Origin: a virus
Lineage: Duplodnaviria; Caudoviricetes
Reading direction: 5' to 3' (one strand)
IMG/VR virus record: IMGVR_UViG_3300037424_000434
Coordinates: 171,766 to 235,765 of that record
Length of the DNA: 64,000 nucleotides
The notes under the pieces were generated by a model. That model was not told where the DNA came from. It did no database searches and worked only from the letters and a program-made list of their open reading frames with translations. This document shows, in pieces, positions 23,898 through 55,317 of this stretch. The translations under genes were made by a program, and so were the position numbers. Positions within the stretch are counted from its first letter, which is position 1; every line of letters begins with the position of its first letter.

Positions 23898-24212
23898 ATG
23901 ATAAATGTATGTTTTTGGTGTAATAGAGCTAAAGCTGAAGAGCAGGCAGGACAACCCGTTTATACTGACTATGAATTTTGTCCCTTATGTAAGAAGATAT
24001 GTGAACAAGGAATAACCATAATTCAAGTCACAACCGAGTCTAATGGCAATCCGCCCGTCAGGGATGGTCTTTGTCCTACAGGTAAATGGGTTGTGGTATC
24101 AGAAAAAGAATTGGTGAGAGTATTGACAGACTCACCAATTCTTGATACCATCCTGCTTGCTCGACAGTTATATGTAAACAAAAATGATTGGGGGAGCCTA
24201 AAACTCCCTTAA
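23898..24212 (+). CDS. Hypothetical Zn-binding protein
   Basis: CFWC...CPLC. Confidence 0.55.
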   Translation: MINVCFWCNRAKAEEQAGQPVYTDYEFCPLCKKICEQGITIIQVTTESNGNPPVRDGLCPTGKWVVVSEKELVRVLTDSPILDTILLARQLYVNKNDWGSLKLP

Positions 24213-25171
24213 AGGAGACCAACGTGTTTAAAAAATATTGTTCGATCACACATCATTACAACTCAAAGTATATTTCCAAGTGGATAACATATCATCCAGA
24301 ACTGAAAGATGCTATGTACGTCGTTCACGAAAAAGTGGATGGATCTAATCTTCAGTTGATTTTTCGGCCAGAAGATAGTTTGGTTTATGCTAGCCGTAAG
24401 ATGATCCTTGAACCCGAAGACGGGTTCAATGGGGTTAGACAAGTAATTGAGGGTATTTGGGATAATGGTCTTTGGCATATTCAGGAATATTCTCGTATAG
24501 AGAATGTAGTCGTGCGGTTGTATGGTGAATTCTTTGGACCCAAAATTCAAGGTAGAGTAGATTATGGACCAAACAAAGGGTTCCTGATCTTTGACATAGA
24601 AGTTGATGGATTCTGGCTGAGCCCAAGGGAAGTGGAAGACTTTCTATATGATTTGAAGTGCGATCATTTGATGGTTCCGGTCATAGCCTATGCCCATTCC
24701 CTTGAAGAGGCCTTGGAGTGTAACGTAAATTTAAATTCTATGTTGACAAAGGCCGAGGGTGGTACTAATATAATGGAAGGTGGGGTAATCAAACCATATG
24801 AATTAGTTATTAGAACATCGGAAGGTTCAACATTCTATTTAAAAAAGACGAATAACGAATTCTCCGAGAAGTCTACAACCAAACCATGGAGGCAACTAGA
24901 TGGGAGTAATACTCCAGAAGTTGTATCATGGCGCGACACCTTCTGTCAGTATTTGAATGACAACCGGGTACTTTCGGTTTTTAGTAAATACGGTGAGATC
25001 GAAAAATCTGGCCAGATGGGGGATTATATTAGATATATTCTCCAAGACGCCAAAGAATCCTTTTTAGAGGAAGAGACCGATTTTGATATCAATGAATATA
25101 CGAAAGATGAATATAAGTTCATAACAAACGGTGGTAACGCCGTGGCGATGTTGCTTAAAAAATATCTATAG
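24188..25171 (+). CDS. rnl2: RNA ligase 2 (Rnl2 family)
   Basis: Nucleotidyltransferase motifs HEKVDGSN, LYGEFFG, FLIFDI, MEGGVIKP, YLKKTNNEF, plus C-terminal YLNDNRVLSVFSKYG. Probable GTG start 24224. Confidence 0.88.
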   Translation: MGEPKTPLKETNVFKKYCSITHHYNSKYISKWITYHPELKDAMYVVHEKVDGSNLQLIFRPEDSLVYASRKMILEPEDGFNGVRQVIEGIWDNGLWHIQEYSRIENVVVRLYGEFFGPKIQGRVDYGPNKGFLIFDIEVDGFWLSPREVEDFLYDLKCDHLMVPVIAYAHSLEEALECNVNLNSMLTKAEGGTNIMEGGVIKPYELVIRTSEGSTFYLKKTNNEFSEKSTTKPWRQLDGSNTPEVVSWRDTFCQYLNDNRVLSVFSKYGEIEKSGQMGDYIRYILQDAKESFLEEETDFDINEYTKDEYKFITNGGNAVAMLLKKYL

Positions 25172-29176: not shown

Positions 29177-29252
29177 GCGGGTAGAACTCAGTCTCATGGT
29201 GAGGCAGTAGCCTTCCAAGCTATCGTTAGGTGTTCGATTCACCCTACCCGCT
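29177..29252 (+). tRNA. tRNA-Gly(TCC), CCA not encoded
   Basis: GCGGGTA/TACCCGC-T, CT-TCC-AA. Confidence 0.8.
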
Positions 29253-30640: not shown

Positions 30641-30715
30641 GCACTCATGGTGAAAAGGAAATCACAGGAAACTTCTAATTTCTCGTTCTAGGTTCGAGTC
30701 CTAGTGGGTGCGCCA
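30641..30715 (+). tRNA. tRNA-Arg(TCT)
   Basis: Canonical cloverleaf, CCA. Confidence 0.92.
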
Positions 30716-30796
30716 TTTGATAACATTTTTTGTACACTAACAATTGAAATGTTATCACACAAAAATTATAATTGAAAGTGTTTAAAGACAAATTTC

Positions 30797-30922
30797 GGTG
30801 TCGTAAATTAGAGTTACTTCGTCTTCTAAACGAGTGGTCGCTGGTTCGAATCCAGCCAAGATCCCCAAAAAGGTCTTGTAGCTCAGCGGTAGAGCACTAA
30901 ATCTCTCTGATTGATTGTTACC
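30797..30922 (+). tRNA. Circularly permuted tRNA (anticodon TCT): 3' half 30818/9-30867 precedes 5' half 30872-30897
   Basis: Order is anticodon arm, TGGTC, GCTGG-TTCGAAT-CCAGC, CAAGATC-C-CCA, AAAA, GGTCTTG, TA-GCTC-AGCGGTA-GAGC-A. The flanks pair (AATTAGAG/CTCTGATT). Confidence 0.85.
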
Positions 30923-30938
30923 CGAAATTTTGAGTTAT

Positions 30939-31013
30939 GCTCCAATAGTTAAACGGTATAACGGGCAACTTATAATTGTTTGTTGGAGGGTTCGACTCCC
31001 CCTTGGAGTACCA
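30939..31013 (+). tRNA. tRNA-Ile(TAT)
   Basis: GGCAA-CTTATAA-TTGTT, CCA. Confidence 0.85.
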
Positions 31014-31270
31014 CTTTTTTAATAACGACAATGATAAGCGGCAACGGGCACCCAATACTGCCATAAGTGCGGGTGGTTTCAACCGCAAACGATAAAACCG
31101 AGTTGGGATTGCTGCCCTGATTGCGGAAACGAGAAAATCCCTTTCGTGGTTGGGCGGTACATCGTTGAAACAAAGAAGTGTGGCCGATGGCTCTGGGTAT
31201 ATTTTGAAACAAAAAATGTCGGGTTTATACCGGCAACCTAACAACCCACTCTGGGACTTCGTGATGATGA

Positions 31271-38589: not shown

Positions 38590-38944
38590 GGGGTTGTAAA
38601 GGTTTCGACAGTCGTTGGGATGGAGATAACACGTGCAGTAGATGATTGTTGGCTACTTAAAAAATCAATCAAACAGATAAACGCTGAAGATAACTTCGCA
38701 CTAGCGGCATAAGCCGCTTGTCGCTGTGACAACTCCTGATAGTCACTATAGCGGCATCATTAGTCAGGAAAAGCTGACCATGCTTAATGGTATGAAATAC
38801 GGTTTTTTTTGGTTCATATCGCGTCACCGGGGAAGTTATGCTTGGCCGTATTTTCGAGAAAAAAGAGCGCCAAAGGCGAAACGCACGTAATGAATGTTAC
38901 TTTTGAACAATGGTTGGACGTGGGTTCGACTCCCACCAACTCCA
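38590..38944 (+). ncRNA. ssrA: tmRNA, tag (A)AEDNFALAA at 38683-38712
   Basis: 5' GGGGTTGTAAAGGTTTCGAC, 3' GTGGGTTCGACTCCCACCAACTCCA with G3:U70 and A73, tag ending ALAA-stop. Confidence 0.95.
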
Positions 38945-39038
38945 TAATTAATGTGAGCCAAACCATGCGAAGGTGAATAGATACCACTGGATGGGAGCTT
39001 AGGCCGCGCTAAGAAGCCGCGCTAATAAGGATATTATA

Positions 39039-53454: not shown

Positions 53455-54952
53455 GTGAAAGACAAAATTATGACAATAATAACCGAGTATGCAGAAAGAA
53501 CAGCGTTTGCGGATGATCAAGCAAAAGACGATTACATTAACATGGTAGAAAAATGGTGTAACATCATTTCAGACGCTGCTGGTAAAGTATCAGTGGGGGT
53601 GGTGTATACCGATAAATACAATGGCGGTGCCGACAACGAACCACTGAGATACGCTTATAATGGTGACTCGGGTTTCGATCTTAGGGCAGAAACAAATGAT
53701 GCCGGGGGATATGAGATTGCTCCAAAAGGGACAGTTGTTATCCCGGTTGGCATCAAAGTGGCGGTCCCGAAAGGCACCGAGCTTCAGGTTAGAACACGCT
53801 CAGGATCTCCCGTCAAAAAGGGATTTTTTGTAGCAAACTCTCCGGGAACGGTAAACTAAAATCCCAAAAAATCAATCGTTCCTATTTATTTTTATAAATA
53901 CTTGTAGAATGAATGGGGGGATTGATATGATAGCAAAATGTTTAATATGTAATAAAGAATTGGATGTATGGCCTAGTAGGGCAAAGAAATTCAAAACCTG
54001 TAGCATGAAATGTCTTGCCGAGTATTTTAAAGACGATAATAATACTATATGTAAGACTTGTGGTAAAGAATTTCATTTAAAACCTTATAGGAAAAAAAGA
54101 TCACAGGATAATTTTTGTTCTGTGGGGTGTTTTGCCAGTTGGAAAAGTGAAAGCCAACGAGGATGCAATAACCCCAATTTTAGAAACAGACTATATGGTG
54201 GAGATGGTATGAAGATTTTACATATACCGTCAATAGGTAGTGTTAAAGAACACCGATTTGTTGCTGAATCAATATTAGGTGAGATACCAAAAGGACTTAA
54301 TGTTCATCATAGAGACTGCAATCCTATAAACAATGTTCCCGAAAATCTAGTAGTGCTGTGTCCTAAAGACCATAGGTGGATACATAAACAATTCGGAAAT
54401 GCTACATTATACGCATATTATTACAACAAGATAGATAAAGAATCATTGATATCTTGGTCTAACGATAAAGATAGAGCAGAAAGATTGTTAGACTTGAACA
54501 TTTTGAATCAAAAACTGCCGTTATAAAATTGGGTGAATTCAGGGGAAGTCCAGAAGTGGATAATCCTGAGCCAAGCCCCACGAATTAACAGATTAGTAGT
54601 GGGGAAGGTGCAACGCATAGAAGGTGAGGATGTTATACCAATAACCCTTCCACGAGCGCCCGACAATAGAAATATTGAAGATGTATGCTGGACATGCACA
54701 TATAACTTGACAATGAAAGTGCAGAACTATGGGATAAAAAGCCCGTAGGATAACAAACGAGATAGTGGGTATAGGGGAGTTGTTGGTGTTATTTGTCATA
54801 ATCTATCAGACGAACTTGTCACCATAGAGTGTGGCGAAAGAATTGCCCAAGGTGTTATTTGTCCGGTGTATCAAGCTGTTTTTACACAGGTAGAAGATCT
54901 TGGTGTTACAGAAAGGGGCGATGGTGCCTATAATTCCACGGGAGTACAATGA
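53455..54952 (+). CDS. dut: dUTPase interrupted by a group I intron (exon 1 53455-53852, exon 2 54760-54952)
   Basis: DSGFDL, RTRSG, NSPGT(V) joined to DSGYRG...GERIAQGVI...RGDGAYNSTG. The join GT|A restores motif III. Confidence 0.92.
53853..54759 (+). mobile_element. Group I intron
   Basis: Exon ends in U and intron ends in G. P1 AACGGU/GCCGUU (54517-54522) has U.G at the junction. P3 TTGGGTG/CGCCCGA, P/Q GAATTCAGGGGAA and AATCCTGAGCCAAGC, P7 GCATA/TATGC. Confidence 0.9.
53927..54526 (+). CDS. Intron-encoded HNH homing endonuclease
   Basis: CxxC repeats, EHRFVAE, VHHRDCNPINNVPENL; late promoter TATAAATA at 53893. Confidence 0.88.
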   Translation: MIAKCLICNKELDVWPSRAKKFKTCSMKCLAEYFKDDNNTICKTCGKEFHLKPYRKKRSQDNFCSVGCFASWKSESQRGCNNPNFRNRLYGGDGMKILHIPSIGSVKEHRFVAESILGEIPKGLNVHHRDCNPINNVPENLVVLCPKDHRWIHKQFGNATLYAYYYNKIDKESLISWSNDKDRAERLLDLNILNQKLPL

Positions 54953-55317
54953 TGATTAGACCAGACGGTAAAAAAATTCAGGAAGTCAAAGACCATTTCA
55001 ATCTTCTTTGTGAACAAGAAATCATCCACATGACGGCCAAAGTCAGAGAAGTGGAAGAAGATCCAGAAAGAGAGCTGAAGGAAGACGAGATTAATAGTGT
55101 TCGACATAAACACCAATCTCTAGAAAAAAGACATCTAGACACTATTCTAGCTCTTGGGCCAGAGAAACTTTACAAATCCGGCTTTGGGTTCAACACTGTT
55201 GGGGGTGAAGGTTGGAGAGCGGGGTACACTAAACCACTACTAAGTAAAAGGACGGCAAAACGCCGTACACTCAAAAAACTCGCAAAAAAAGTTCGTCAGC
55301 AGCAGAGAAAAAAATAA
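54949..55317 (+). CDS. Hypothetical protein
   Basis: 122 aa, basic C-terminus. Confidence 0.55.
   Translation: MMIRPDGKKIQEVKDHFNLLCEQEIIHMTAKVREVEEDPERELKEDEINSVRHKHQSLEKRHLDTILALGPEKLYKSGFGFNTVGGEGWRAGYTKPLLSKRTAKRRTLKKLAKKVRQQQRKK

What the first reader, a model, noticed from the sequence alone, without database searches (positions are those of the whole stretch)
30797..30922. Circularly permuted tRNA gene in a phage
Seen: the 3' half of a tRNA comes first. It has anticodon arm TTCGT-CT TCT AA-ACGAG (30818-30834), variable TGGTC, a perfect T arm and CAAGATC-C-CCA. A 4-nt AAAA linker follows, then the 5' half GGTCTTG-TA-GCTC-AGCGGTA-GAGC-A-C. The two acceptor strands form a 7-bp hairpin. 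Joining C30897 to T30819 gives a fully Watson-Crick anticodon stem, i.e. a 27/28 junction. Leader and trailer pair (AATTAGAG 30806-13 with CTCTGATT 30905-12, extendable to GGT/ACC). Known: permuted tRNA genes occur in red algae such as Cyanidioschyzon, some other algae and a crenarchaeon, and mature through a circular intermediate. Bacterial YrlA Y RNAs have the same T-arm, acceptor, D-arm order but no true anticodon arm. I know of no phage example. Inference: this is either a tRNA matured by cleavage and ligation (the phage Rnl2 heads the array), an uncut two-piece or circular tRNA mimic acting as decoy for anticodon nucleases, or a Y-RNA-like RNA. I could not draw a canonical bulge-helix-bulge. 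U20 and C73 are not typical Arg identity elements, and a normal Arg(TCT) gene lies 100 bp upstream.
Basis: partly seen in the sequence, partly recalled or inferred. Interest (0 to 1): 0.95.

Follow-up and report, generated by a model that had tools for sequence, protein, structure and literature searches.

The report
Phage Y RNA that mimics tRNA
The "back-to-front tRNA gene" is real, but it is a YrlA-type Y RNA, a known class of tRNA-mimicking RNA that partners the Ro60 protein this jumbo phage also encodes, so it is a new member of a known family and not a new kind of tRNA gene.

Summary
Observation confirmed. Window 30790-30930 (+) carries, in order: anticodon-like hairpin, variable loop, T arm, a 7-bp closed acceptor hairpin (loop C-CCA-AAAA), D arm, and a pairing leader and trailer. 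Cut and rejoined at nt 28/29, ARAGORN calls it a perfect 75-nt tRNA-Arg(tct).

It is not a one-off. The same architecture occurs in at least 120 IMG/VR viral contigs and at least 120 bacterial species genomes. In 99/120 viral and 104/120 bacterial loci a TROVE/Ro60 gene lies nearby. In all 99 viral loci it is on the same strand, and in 87 of them the RNA lies upstream of it. Covariation supports every variable helix: 94.8% of cells paired against about 41% when partners are slid.

This is the published YrlA Y RNA class (Chen 2014; Wang 2018), which was already compared with permuted tRNAs and already reported in phages. The window's 236-kb phage encodes a Ro60 (TROVE+vWA) about 110 kb away, with a YrlB-like RNA just upstream whose Ro60-binding module resembles this element's leader and trailer.

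Less ordinary points:
- It sits in the tRNA array, far from rsr.
- It has an encoded CCA and a 7-bp acceptor, so RNase P cleavage into two pieces is expected, as in M. smegmatis.
- The so-called V arm is topologically the distal anticodon arm.

This scan has flagged similar Ro60/Y-RNA elements in many other genomes. Interest is modest.

The parts
30744..30772 (+). Sigma-70-like promoter candidate (TTGAAA, 17 nt, TATAAT), about 18 nt before the terminal stem
   Evidence: Consensus scan, 11 of 12 matches. A pattern match only; function not shown.
30790..30799 (+). Outer terminal stem, 5' strand (AAAUUUCGGU); pairs with 30920-30930
   Evidence: MFE fold. Equivalent outer pairing seen by eye in family members.
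30800..30806 (+). Candidate Ro60/Rsr-binding motif GUCGUAA (variant of the published GNCGAAN0-1G) in the internal loop of the terminal stem
   Evidence: Family position matrix GKKGYGNAGR at -15..-6 from GUUAC; the window matches 8 of 10 positions. Motif described in PMC4201824.
30806..30813 (+). Basal stem, 5' strand (AAUUAGAG); pairs with 30905-30912
   Evidence: RNAalifold and pair counts: 8 pairs, 7 of them with changes on both sides, 89% of cells paired.
30814..30819 (+). Linker UUACUU containing the YrlA-conserved YUAY (UUAC)
   Evidence: Invariant in alignment A1 by choice of search pattern. YUAY is described in PMC4201824.
30820..30832 (+). Hairpin equivalent to tRNA nt 29-41: 3-bp stem CGU/ACG with the 7-nt loop CUUCUAA (U33, UCU, A37, A38)
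   Evidence: 81 of 128 viral elements have this exact geometry: U33 in 77/81, R37 in 80/81, A38 in 77/81.
30833..30834 (+). nt 42-43 (AG), pairing in trans with nt 28-27 (30898, 30897) after the D arm
   Evidence: 63/63 and 62/63 paired, types AU 35, GC 19, UA 4, CG 4. 99% paired in A1. Same pairs as in the Rfam YrlA model alignment.
30835..30839 (+). 5-nt variable loop UGGUC (C48 can form the Levitt pair with G15 at 30886)
   Evidence: Sequence; ARAGORN cloverleaf of the permuted sequence.
30840..30856 (+). T arm (GCUGG-UUCGAAU-CCAGC)
   Evidence: Rfam YrlA and tRNA alignments; covariation at 3 of 5 pairs.
30857..30878 (+). Closed acceptor-like hairpin: CAAGAUC / loop C-CCA-AAAA / GGUCUUG (7 bp). 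Predicted RNase P site between 30871 and 30872
   Evidence: 7/7 pairs. In the family 73/128 have 7/7 and 38/128 have 6/7, and 6 of 7 pairs show compensatory change. The RNase P cut is inferred from M. smegmatis YrlA (PMC4201824).
30879..30895 (+). U8-A9 and D arm (GCUC-AGCGGUA-GAGC)
   Evidence: D stem is 4/4 in 127 of 128 elements.
30896..30898 (+). nt 26-28 (A, C, U). C27 and U28 pair with G43 and A42
30899..30904 (+). 3' linker AAAUCU
   Evidence: Sequence; unpaired in the MFE fold.
30905..30912 (+). Basal stem, 3' strand (CUCUGAUU)
30913..30930 (+). 3' internal-loop strand GAUUGUU (family consensus UUGUUCC) and outer stem 3' strand ACCCGAAAUUU
   Evidence: The same UGUUACCC is found in L043, whose Ro60 is the closest match to the own-genome Ro60.
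24188..25171 (+). Context: Rnl2-type RNA ligase gene at the head of the tRNA array
   Evidence: Pfam RNA_ligase 1.4e-18 and T4_Rnl2_C 1.1e-07.
30641..30715 (+). Context: ordinary tRNA-Arg(tct) gene upstream, with the same anticodon loop CUUCUAA
   Evidence: ARAGORN and Rfam tRNA 56.8 bits; sequence.

Best explanation
Window 30790-30930 encodes a YrlA-class Y RNA of about 140 nt.

Shown by sequence, fold and covariation:
- The 5' and 3' ends pair into a long interrupted stem. It carries the Ro60/Rsr-binding motif (5' GUCGUAA, 3' UUGUUACC).
- The interior folds as a complete tRNA cloverleaf whose chain is permuted. The Ro60-binding stem enters and leaves between nt 28 and 29 of the anticodon stem, and the acceptor stem is closed by a loop.

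Inferred from family linkage and the literature:
- The RNA is transcribed with, or just ahead of, the neighbouring tRNAs.
- It is bound through the terminal stem by the phage's own Ro60 (TROVE+vWA, encoded about 110 kb away).
- It presents the tRNA-like domain to host tRNA-recognising factors, or tethers Ro60 to an effector such as PNPase, as shown for Deinococcus and Salmonella Y RNAs and for Thermus phage phiLo Yrl RNAs.

This copy has a 7-bp acceptor stem followed by C-CCA-AAAA. I therefore predict that RNase P cuts before G30872 and that exonucleases trim back to CCA. That would give a two-piece RNA of about 78 + 59 nt held together by base pairing, as observed in vivo for M. smegmatis YrlA. 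No ligation step is needed.
For: 1. Rfam YrlA (RF02553) matches 30833-30898 at 38.1 bits, E = 4e-7, over the T arm, acceptor hairpin and D arm. A tandem tRNA junction in the same genome gives only 24.7 bits.
2. The signature GTTACTTC..GGTTCGA..GTAGCTCA occurs in at least 120 viral contigs and at least 120 bacterial species genomes. 99/120 viral loci have a TROVE gene in the locus, always on the same strand, and in 87 of the 99 the element lies upstream of it. 104/120 bacterial loci have a TROVE hit.
3. In Xanthomonas phage Tabio the homologue (76-78% identical) lies directly upstream of a TROVE+vWA gene.
4. Covariation on 48 diverse members: 94.8% of cells paired against 30-43% with slid partners, covariation score 0.68 against about 0.1, 0 of 500 shuffles as high.
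5. The window's own genome encodes a Ro60 (TROVE 105.7 bits plus vWA_Ro60). Directly upstream of that gene lies a Y RNA without a tRNA domain whose handle (GGUGCCGUAGUAUAGAGAUACUUC ... CUCUGUUCGCUUGUUGUCC) resembles the window's (GGUGUCGUAAAUUAGAGUUACUUC ... CUCUGAUUGAUUGUUACCC).
6. The locus whose Ro60 is closest to the own-genome Ro60 (L043, 1.9e-132) carries the same rare handle variants, GGUGUCGUA and UGUUACCC.
7. [quoted passage not shown]
Against: - The Rfam score is below the gathering threshold (38.1 against 69), and the match is local.
- The element is about 110 kb from rsr, whereas the published criterion was within 4 kb.
- The motif GUCGUAA departs from GNCGAAN0-1G at two positions.
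- There are no RNA data for this uncultured sediment phage, so transcription, Ro60 binding and RNase P cleavage are all unshown.
- My covariance model R1 included the window in its seed, so its 128 bits is not independent evidence.
Confidence: 0.85

Rival explanations
1. A true circularly permuted tRNA gene. The leader/trailer helix is cut, the ends are ligated (for example by the phage Rnl2) into a circle, and RNase P/Z open the acceptor to give a working tRNA-Arg(UCU).
For: The permuted sequence is a perfect cloverleaf by ARAGORN. CCA is encoded after a 7-bp acceptor. An Rnl2 ligase heads the array. [quoted passage not shown]
Against: - No bulge-helix-bulge: the junction has 6-nt linkers on both strands.
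- No splicing endonuclease is known in bacteria or phages.
- Homologues mostly have closed acceptors without CCA (121 of 128).
- Their 'anticodons' vary freely at positions 34-35, while positions 36-38 are held to UAA or GGA.
- Linkage is to Ro60, not to codon usage.
- U20 and C73 are not Arg identity elements (my knowledge).
- A normal tRNA-Arg(tct) lies 100 nt upstream.
Confidence: 0.04
2. Inert debris of a tandem tRNA duplication. The 3' part of one copy is followed by the 5' part of the next, so the two acceptor strands are complementary by descent only.
For: ARAGORN and Rfam still call a weak linear tRNA at 30797-30867 (29.9 bits). A dimeric-tRNA origin has been proposed for YrlA. The element sits in a tRNA array.
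Against: - Compensatory changes maintain all variable helices across more than 100 diverged copies.
- The leader/trailer handle is conserved and matches the RNA next to the genome's own rsr.
- The fold is far better than shuffles.
- Array-embedded copies recur in at least 11 other viral contigs. Three of five tested contigs also carry TROVE elsewhere, and the other two are fragments estimated at 13% and 40% complete.
Confidence: 0.04
3. A Ro60-independent tRNA mimic, for example a decoy or sensor for host anticodon nucleases or tRNA-modifying enzymes, or the partner of another protein, that merely shares ancestry with YrlA.
For: It lies 110 kb from rsr, within the tRNA array and near Rnl2. Its anticodon loop is identical to that of the phage tRNA-Arg(UCU). 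Earlier notes of this scan describe tRNA-mimic RNAs with non-Ro60 partners inside phage tRNA clusters.
Against: The Ro60-binding handle is intact on both strands and is of the clade-specific type that goes with this genome's Ro60. The loop sequence is not conserved in the nearest relatives (CUGUUAA in L064/L067).
Confidence: 0.07

Closest known systems
YrlA Y RNAs of bacteria and mycobacteriophages (Rfam RF02553; Chen et al. 2014, PMC4201824; Wang et al. 2018, 10.1101/312249, PDB 6CU1)
   Same: - Order of parts: 5' handle, YUAY, V stem-loop, T arm, closed acceptor stem, D arm, 3' handle.
- tRNA-invariant D and T loop nucleotides and the Levitt pair.
- Genetic link to Ro60/Rsr.
- Presence in phages.
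   Different: - Below the Rfam gathering score.
- Not adjacent to rsr (110 kb away, inside the tRNA array).
- The handle motif is GUCGUAA, not GNCGAAN0-1G.
- The V stem-loop is a 3-bp hairpin with a 7-nt U33/R37 loop. It continues the 27-28/42-43 helix, so it sits in the position of the distal anticodon arm, whereas Salmonella YrlA 'lacks the anticodon loop'.
Mycobacterium smegmatis YrlA (Chen et al. 2014)
   Same: A 7-bp acceptor stem. It is cleaved by RNase P and ends in CCA in vivo, and exists as two Rsr-bound pieces (82 + 65 nt). The window's element has the same 7-bp stem and would give about 78 + 59 nt.
   Different: In M. smegmatis CA is added after transcription; here C-CCA is fully encoded and followed by AAAA. 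The M. smegmatis V hairpin appears shorter, judging from a primer sequence in the paper. Processing of the window's RNA is untested.
Thermus phage phiLo phiRo60 with Yrl1/Yrl2 (NAR 2025, PMC12135203)
   Same: Phage-encoded Ro60 with Y-like RNAs just upstream of the gene. This resembles the YrlB-like RNA found upstream of rsr in the window's genome.
   Different: A text search of that paper for 'tRNA-like' found nothing, so Yrl1/Yrl2 are not described there as having a tRNA-like domain. The window's element has a full one and is remote from rsr.
Circularly permuted tRNA genes of Cyanidioschyzon merolae, other algae and Thermofilum (Soma 2007; Maruyama 2010; Chan 2011, as cited in 10.1101/312249)
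   Same: The 3' half precedes the 5' half. The acceptor is closed in the precursor. Leader and trailer pair next to the anticodon stem.
   Different: Those have a bulge-helix-bulge cut by the splicing endonuclease and mature into decoding tRNAs. Here there is no BHB and no such enzyme, the handle is a Ro60 site, and most relatives cannot expose a CCA end.

Membership tests
YrlA / bacterial-type Y RNA | tRNA-like domain in the order T arm, closed acceptor-like stem, D arm, with conserved tRNA tertiary-interaction nucleotides | tested here: met
   Rfam YrlA local alignment over model positions 24-84; ARAGORN cloverleaf of the permuted sequence; covariation.
YrlA / bacterial-type Y RNA | 5' and 3' ends pair into a stem carrying the Ro60-binding motif GNCGAAN0-1G on the 5' strand | tested here: met
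   The stem is present and covaries. The motif is the variant GUCGUAA, differing at two positions. The strict motif is found in only 5 of 128 viral relatives, and the window matches 8 of 10 positions of the family matrix.
YrlA / bacterial-type Y RNA | Conserved YUAY before the V region | tested here: met
   UUAC at 30814-30817.
YrlA / bacterial-type Y RNA | Encoded within about 4 kb of, and on the same strand as, a Ro60/TROVE gene | tested here: not met
   The own-genome TROVE gene is at about 91.4-93.0 kb on the minus strand; the element is at about 202.6 kb on the plus strand. The criterion is met by 99/120 viral and 104/120 bacterial relatives for presence in the locus. Ro60 is present in the genome.
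YrlA / bacterial-type Y RNA | Score at or above the Rfam gathering threshold (69 bits) | tested here: not met
   38.1 bits, local match. Tabio homologues next to Ro60 also score only 37-52 bits, so the model under-reaches this subclass.
YrlA / bacterial-type Y RNA | Physical binding by Ro60/Rsr; tRNA-type modifications (psi55, D) | not testable with these tools
   No RNA or protein data exist for this uncultured phage.
Circularly permuted tRNA gene (algal/archaeal type) | The rejoined halves form a canonical cloverleaf | tested here: met
   ARAGORN tRNA-Arg(tct), 75 nt. 79 of 80 relatives with the strict arm geometry are also called tRNAs when permuted.
Circularly permuted tRNA gene (algal/archaeal type) | Bulge-helix-bulge at the leader/trailer junction for the splicing endonuclease | tested here: not met
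   By inspection of the sequence and fold: 6-nt linkers UUACUU and AAAUCU flank the junction, with no 3-nt bulges separated by a 4-bp helix.
Circularly permuted tRNA gene (algal/archaeal type) | Matures to a linear, CCA-ended, aminoacylated decoding tRNA | not testable with these tools
   No RNA data. Indirect evidence against: 121 of 128 relatives lack NCCA after the acceptor.
Ordinary tRNA gene (the ARAGORN call 30797-30867) | Paired acceptor stem and D arm in linear order | tested here: not met
   The Rfam tRNA alignment marks two non-standard acceptor pairs and has a near-absent D arm; 29.9 bits against a threshold of 29. The true partner of the 3' acceptor strand lies downstream at 30872-78 (7/7 pairs).

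The most novel reading that the evidence does not exclude
In this widespread YrlA subclass the so-called variable stem-loop is really the distal anticodon arm, so the RNA is a complete tRNA with a Ro60 handle inserted at nt 28/29. In copies like this one (7-bp acceptor, encoded CCA, inside a phage tRNA array next to Rnl2), RNase P would release a two-piece, CCA-ended, anticodon-bearing tRNA mimic tethered to phage Ro60. That mimic would act as a decoy, sensor or repair guide for tRNA-targeting host nucleases or for position-37 modification enzymes. This would also explain why loop nt 36-38 are held to UAA or GGA.
Probability: 0.12. Interest if true: 0.7.

Novelty: new member of a known kind. 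Interest (0 to 1): 0.33.

Why it matters
- Annotation: ARAGORN and Rfam label the 5' part as a second tRNA-Arg, which is wrong. The Rfam YrlA model misses this subclass, although it is present in hundreds of phage and bacterial genomes.
- This jumbo T4-like sediment phage carries a full Ro60 system: Ro60, a handle-only Y RNA next to the gene, and a tRNA-like Y RNA placed among its tRNAs.
- The family-wide analysis adds a structural point I did not find in the papers I read. The 'V arm' lies 5' of nt 42-43, which pair with nt 27-28, so it cannot be a class II variable arm. It occupies the anticodon-arm position and carries an anticodon-loop signature (U33, R37, A38).
- If that holds in three dimensions, YrlA is a more complete tRNA mimic than described. 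This bears on which tRNA-binding effector it recruits, a question the published work leaves open.

Tried and rejected
- The Rfam gathering-threshold scan did not call YrlA. Only the E-value scan did.
- ARAGORN's linear tRNA-Arg call at 30797-30867 is rejected as a real tRNA: the Rfam alignment shows a mispaired acceptor and almost no D arm.
- Misassembly is rejected: an independent contig in X2 matches with no differences, and there are hundreds of homologues.
- No RNA-seq run holds the stretch, and the runs laid were contigs only, so expression, transcript ends and processing could not be examined.
- The 'joints' (30896 back to 30836, with 16-19 letters between) are ordinary tRNAs of other organisms that share the D and T arms. 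They are not evidence of a joined form.
- My first regular expression for the Ro60 motif under-counted (45 of 128) because the motif occurs in two registers. I replaced it with a position matrix.
- Other hits of my model R1 in the genome, apart from the one beside rsr, lie within the tRNA/tmRNA-rich part of the genome. The strongest (41 bits) is a tandem tRNA-Lys junction. None is a full-length copy.
- I did not run structure prediction or complex prediction, because those tools take proteins only.
- I did not test the idea that loop nt 36-38 pair with the GUUACUUC linker. That linker was fixed by my search pattern, so it cannot show covariation.

Full report
**What is there**

From 5' to 3':
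- outer stem strand, 30790-99
- GUCGUAA, 30800-06
- basal stem strand AAUUAGAG, 30806-13
- UUACUU, 30814-19
- a hairpin CGU / CUUCUAA / ACG, 30820-32
- AG, 30833-34
- variable loop UGGUC, 30835-39
- T arm, 30840-56
- acceptor 3' strand CAAGAUC, 30857-63
- loop C-CCA-AAAA, 30864-71
- acceptor 5' strand GGUCUUG, 30872-78
- UA and the D arm, 30879-95
- A-C-U, 30896-98
- AAAUCU, 30899-904
- basal stem strand CUCUGAUU, 30905-12
- GAUUGUU, then outer stem strand ACCCGAAAUUU, 30913-30

The minimum-free-energy fold of 30788-30932 finds all these helices unaided (-39.6 kcal/mol, z = -3.6, 0 of 200 shuffles as good). When 30872-30898 is joined to 30820-30867 in silico, ARAGORN returns a flawless 75-nt tRNA-Arg(tct).

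ARAGORN and Rfam also make a weak linear call, tRNA-Arg at 30797-30867 (29.9 bits against a cut-off of 29). In the Rfam alignment it has a mispaired acceptor and almost no D arm. That call is a mis-annotation.

**It is not an accident or an assembly error**

A contig from an independent sediment sample and study covers 30812-31058 without a difference.

blastn found a 76-78% identical element in eleven Xanthomonas/Xylella phages. In phage Tabio it lies immediately upstream of a gene with TROVE and Ro60-vWA domains, and three more Y-like modules precede it.

A pattern taken from the shared motifs (GTTACTTC, gap, GGTTCGA, gap, GTAGCTCA) hit at least 120 IMG/VR contigs and at least 120 bacterial species genomes.

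tblastn with two Ro60 proteins found a TROVE gene in 99 of 120 viral loci. In all 99 it is on the same strand as the element, and in 87 the element lies upstream of it, mostly 60-1000 nt from the match. It also found a TROVE gene in 104 of 120 bacterial loci.

**Structure across the family**

Among 128 distinct viral elements:
- The acceptor hairpin has 7/7 pairs in 73 and 6/7 in 38.
- The D stem is 4/4 in 127.

On an alignment of 48 diverse members (A1), RNAalifold independently predicted the basal stem, T arm, acceptor hairpin and D arm. For my full structure:
- 94.8% of cells are paired, against 30-43% when partners are slid.
- The covariation score is 0.68 against about 0.1.
- 0 of 500 shuffles reach the observed value.

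The key detail concerns nt 27 and 28, which lie just after the D arm. They pair with nt 43 and 42, just after the hairpin, in 63/63 and 62/63 elements. All four Watson-Crick pair types occur (AU 35, GC 19, UA 4, CG 4). The invariant UU of the 5' linker cannot pair in 13 of those cases. These are the same pairs that the Rfam YrlA model draws.

The hairpin (nt 29-31 / 39-41) follows on the same strand with no spacer. Its 7-nt loop has U33 in 77/81, a purine at 37 in 80/81 and A38 in 77/81. When permuted, 79 of 80 such elements are called tRNAs by ARAGORN.

**What it is**

Rfam's YrlA model matches 30833-30898 at 38.1 bits (E = 4e-7). This is below the 69-bit threshold but above the 24.7 bits that a tandem tRNA junction in the same genome reaches.

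The literature describes exactly this class.
- Chen et al. 2014 (PMC4201824): YrlA RNAs near Ro60/Rsr in 254 bacteria and 22 phages. They have a GNCGAAN0-1G motif near the 5' end, a conserved YUAY, a 'V' stem-loop, then T arm, closed acceptor stem and D arm.
- Wang et al. 2018 (10.1101/312249): the Salmonella domain structure. They noted that it lacks an anticodon loop and a free CCA, interpreted long V regions as class II variable arms, explicitly compared YrlA with circularly permuted tRNAs, and cited a dimeric-tRNA origin.
- A 2025 paper (PMC12135203): a phage Ro60 binds phage Y-like RNAs and host PNPase.

**The partner in this genome**

The window is the last 64 kb of a 235,765-bp IMG/VR virus record. 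Notes from this scan describe it as T4-like and from sediment.

It encodes a 544-aa protein with TROVE (105.7 bits) and Ro60-vWA domains at about 91.4-93.0 kb.

My covariance model R1 found, directly upstream of that gene, a Y RNA that has the handle but no tRNA domain (25 bits). Its handle reads GGUGCCGUAGUAUAGAGAUACUUC ... CUCUGUUCGCUUGUUGUCC. The window's reads GGUGUCGUAAAUUAGAGUUACUUC ... CUCUGAUUGAUUGUUACCC.

The viral locus whose Ro60 is most like this genome's (L043, 1.9e-132) carries the same uncommon variants, GGUGUCGUA and UGUUACCC.

The window matches 8 of 10 positions of the family's 5' handle matrix.

I take this as good indirect evidence that the element is a ligand of the phage's own Ro60, although it sits about 110 kb away.

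**How this copy differs from most**

1. It is embedded in the tRNA array, not next to rsr. At least 11 other viral contigs show the same placement. Of five such contigs tested, three have TROVE elsewhere on the contig. The other two are fragments estimated at 13% and 40% complete.
2. Its 7-bp acceptor is followed by C-CCA-AAAA. NCCA in that position occurs in only 7 of 128 relatives. By analogy with M. smegmatis YrlA, which is cut by RNase P and ends in CCA in vivo, I predict a two-piece RNA. This is inference.
3. A near-consensus sigma-70 promoter match (11 of 12) ends 18 nt before the terminal stem. This is a pattern match only.

**A point beyond the papers I read**

The hairpin lies 5' of nt 42-43, and those pair with nt 27-28. 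A class II variable arm lies 3' of nt 43. So the hairpin occupies the topological place of the distal anticodon arm, and the true variable loop is the 5-nt UGGUC. The RNA is then a full cloverleaf with the Ro60 handle inserted at 28/29.

Whether the hairpin stacks as an anticodon arm in three dimensions is not shown.

Loop nt 36-38 are UAA in 56 and GGA in 16 of 81 elements. Real tRNAs in the same loci have A or C at position 36 in 45% of cases. I cannot explain this restriction.

**Verdict**

- The headline interpretation (a permuted tRNA gene needing ligation, without precedent in phages) is not supported.

This is a new member of a known kind. Its placement is somewhat unusual, and it yields a testable structural refinement of the family. 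Earlier notes of this scan record many similar Ro60/Y-RNA finds in other genomes.

Noticed in passing
G000:C1 about 92,950-93,290, minus strand (= L132:1501-1834, minus strand); outside the window: Directly upstream of the genome's Ro60 gene there is a Y RNA with the Ro60 handle but no tRNA domain (YrlB-like; R1 25 bits). A weaker second module lies about 125 nt further upstream (9.9 bits).
   Followed up: partly
family-wide (loci L008-L127); window 30827-30829: In YrlA elements with the anticodon-like hairpin, loop nt 36-38 are almost only UAA (56/81) or GGA (16/81), and A36/C36 are nearly absent. Real tRNAs in the same loci show all four bases at position 36. From my own knowledge, UAA and GG are the sequence determinants for t6A37 and m1G37. 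Unexplained.
   Followed up: partly
window 30717-30772: A strong sigma-70-like promoter match (TTGAAA, 17 nt, TATAAT, 11 of 12) ends at 30772. An inverted repeat (GATAACATTT / AAATGTTATC) overlaps its -35 region. A T-run follows tRNA-Ile at 31014-31020. Together these may define a small Y RNA + tRNA-Ile transcription unit.
   Followed up: no
window 54449-54691: Group I intron (Rfam RF00028, 58.2 bits) on the + strand, overlapping ORF 53909-54526 and upstream of ORF 54949-55317.
   Followed up: no
window 38590-38947: Phage-encoded tmRNA (122 bits) with tag peptide AEDNFALAA, directly after a tRNA-Met. In total ARAGORN finds 27 tRNA genes between 25208 and 38581.
   Followed up: no
window 29177-29252: An Rfam tRNA match at 31.8 bits (just above threshold) that ARAGORN does not call. 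It may be a degenerate or unusual tRNA.
   Followed up: no
L001:2510-3105 (Xanthomonas phage Tabio): Four tandem Y-like modules, each starting with GGUG..(G)UUACUUC, precede the Ro60 gene. Two have a tRNA-like domain (YrlA 52 and 37 bits), and none is annotated in the GenBank record.
   Followed up: partly
loci L136-L255 (bacterial genomes): The same RNA signature occurs next to TROVE genes in Streptomyces, Amycolatopsis, Kitasatospora, Acidobacteriaceae, Chryseobacterium, Chitinophaga, Hyphomonadaceae, Clostridia and others. 62 of 127 elements have the full anticodon-like arm.
   Followed up: partly
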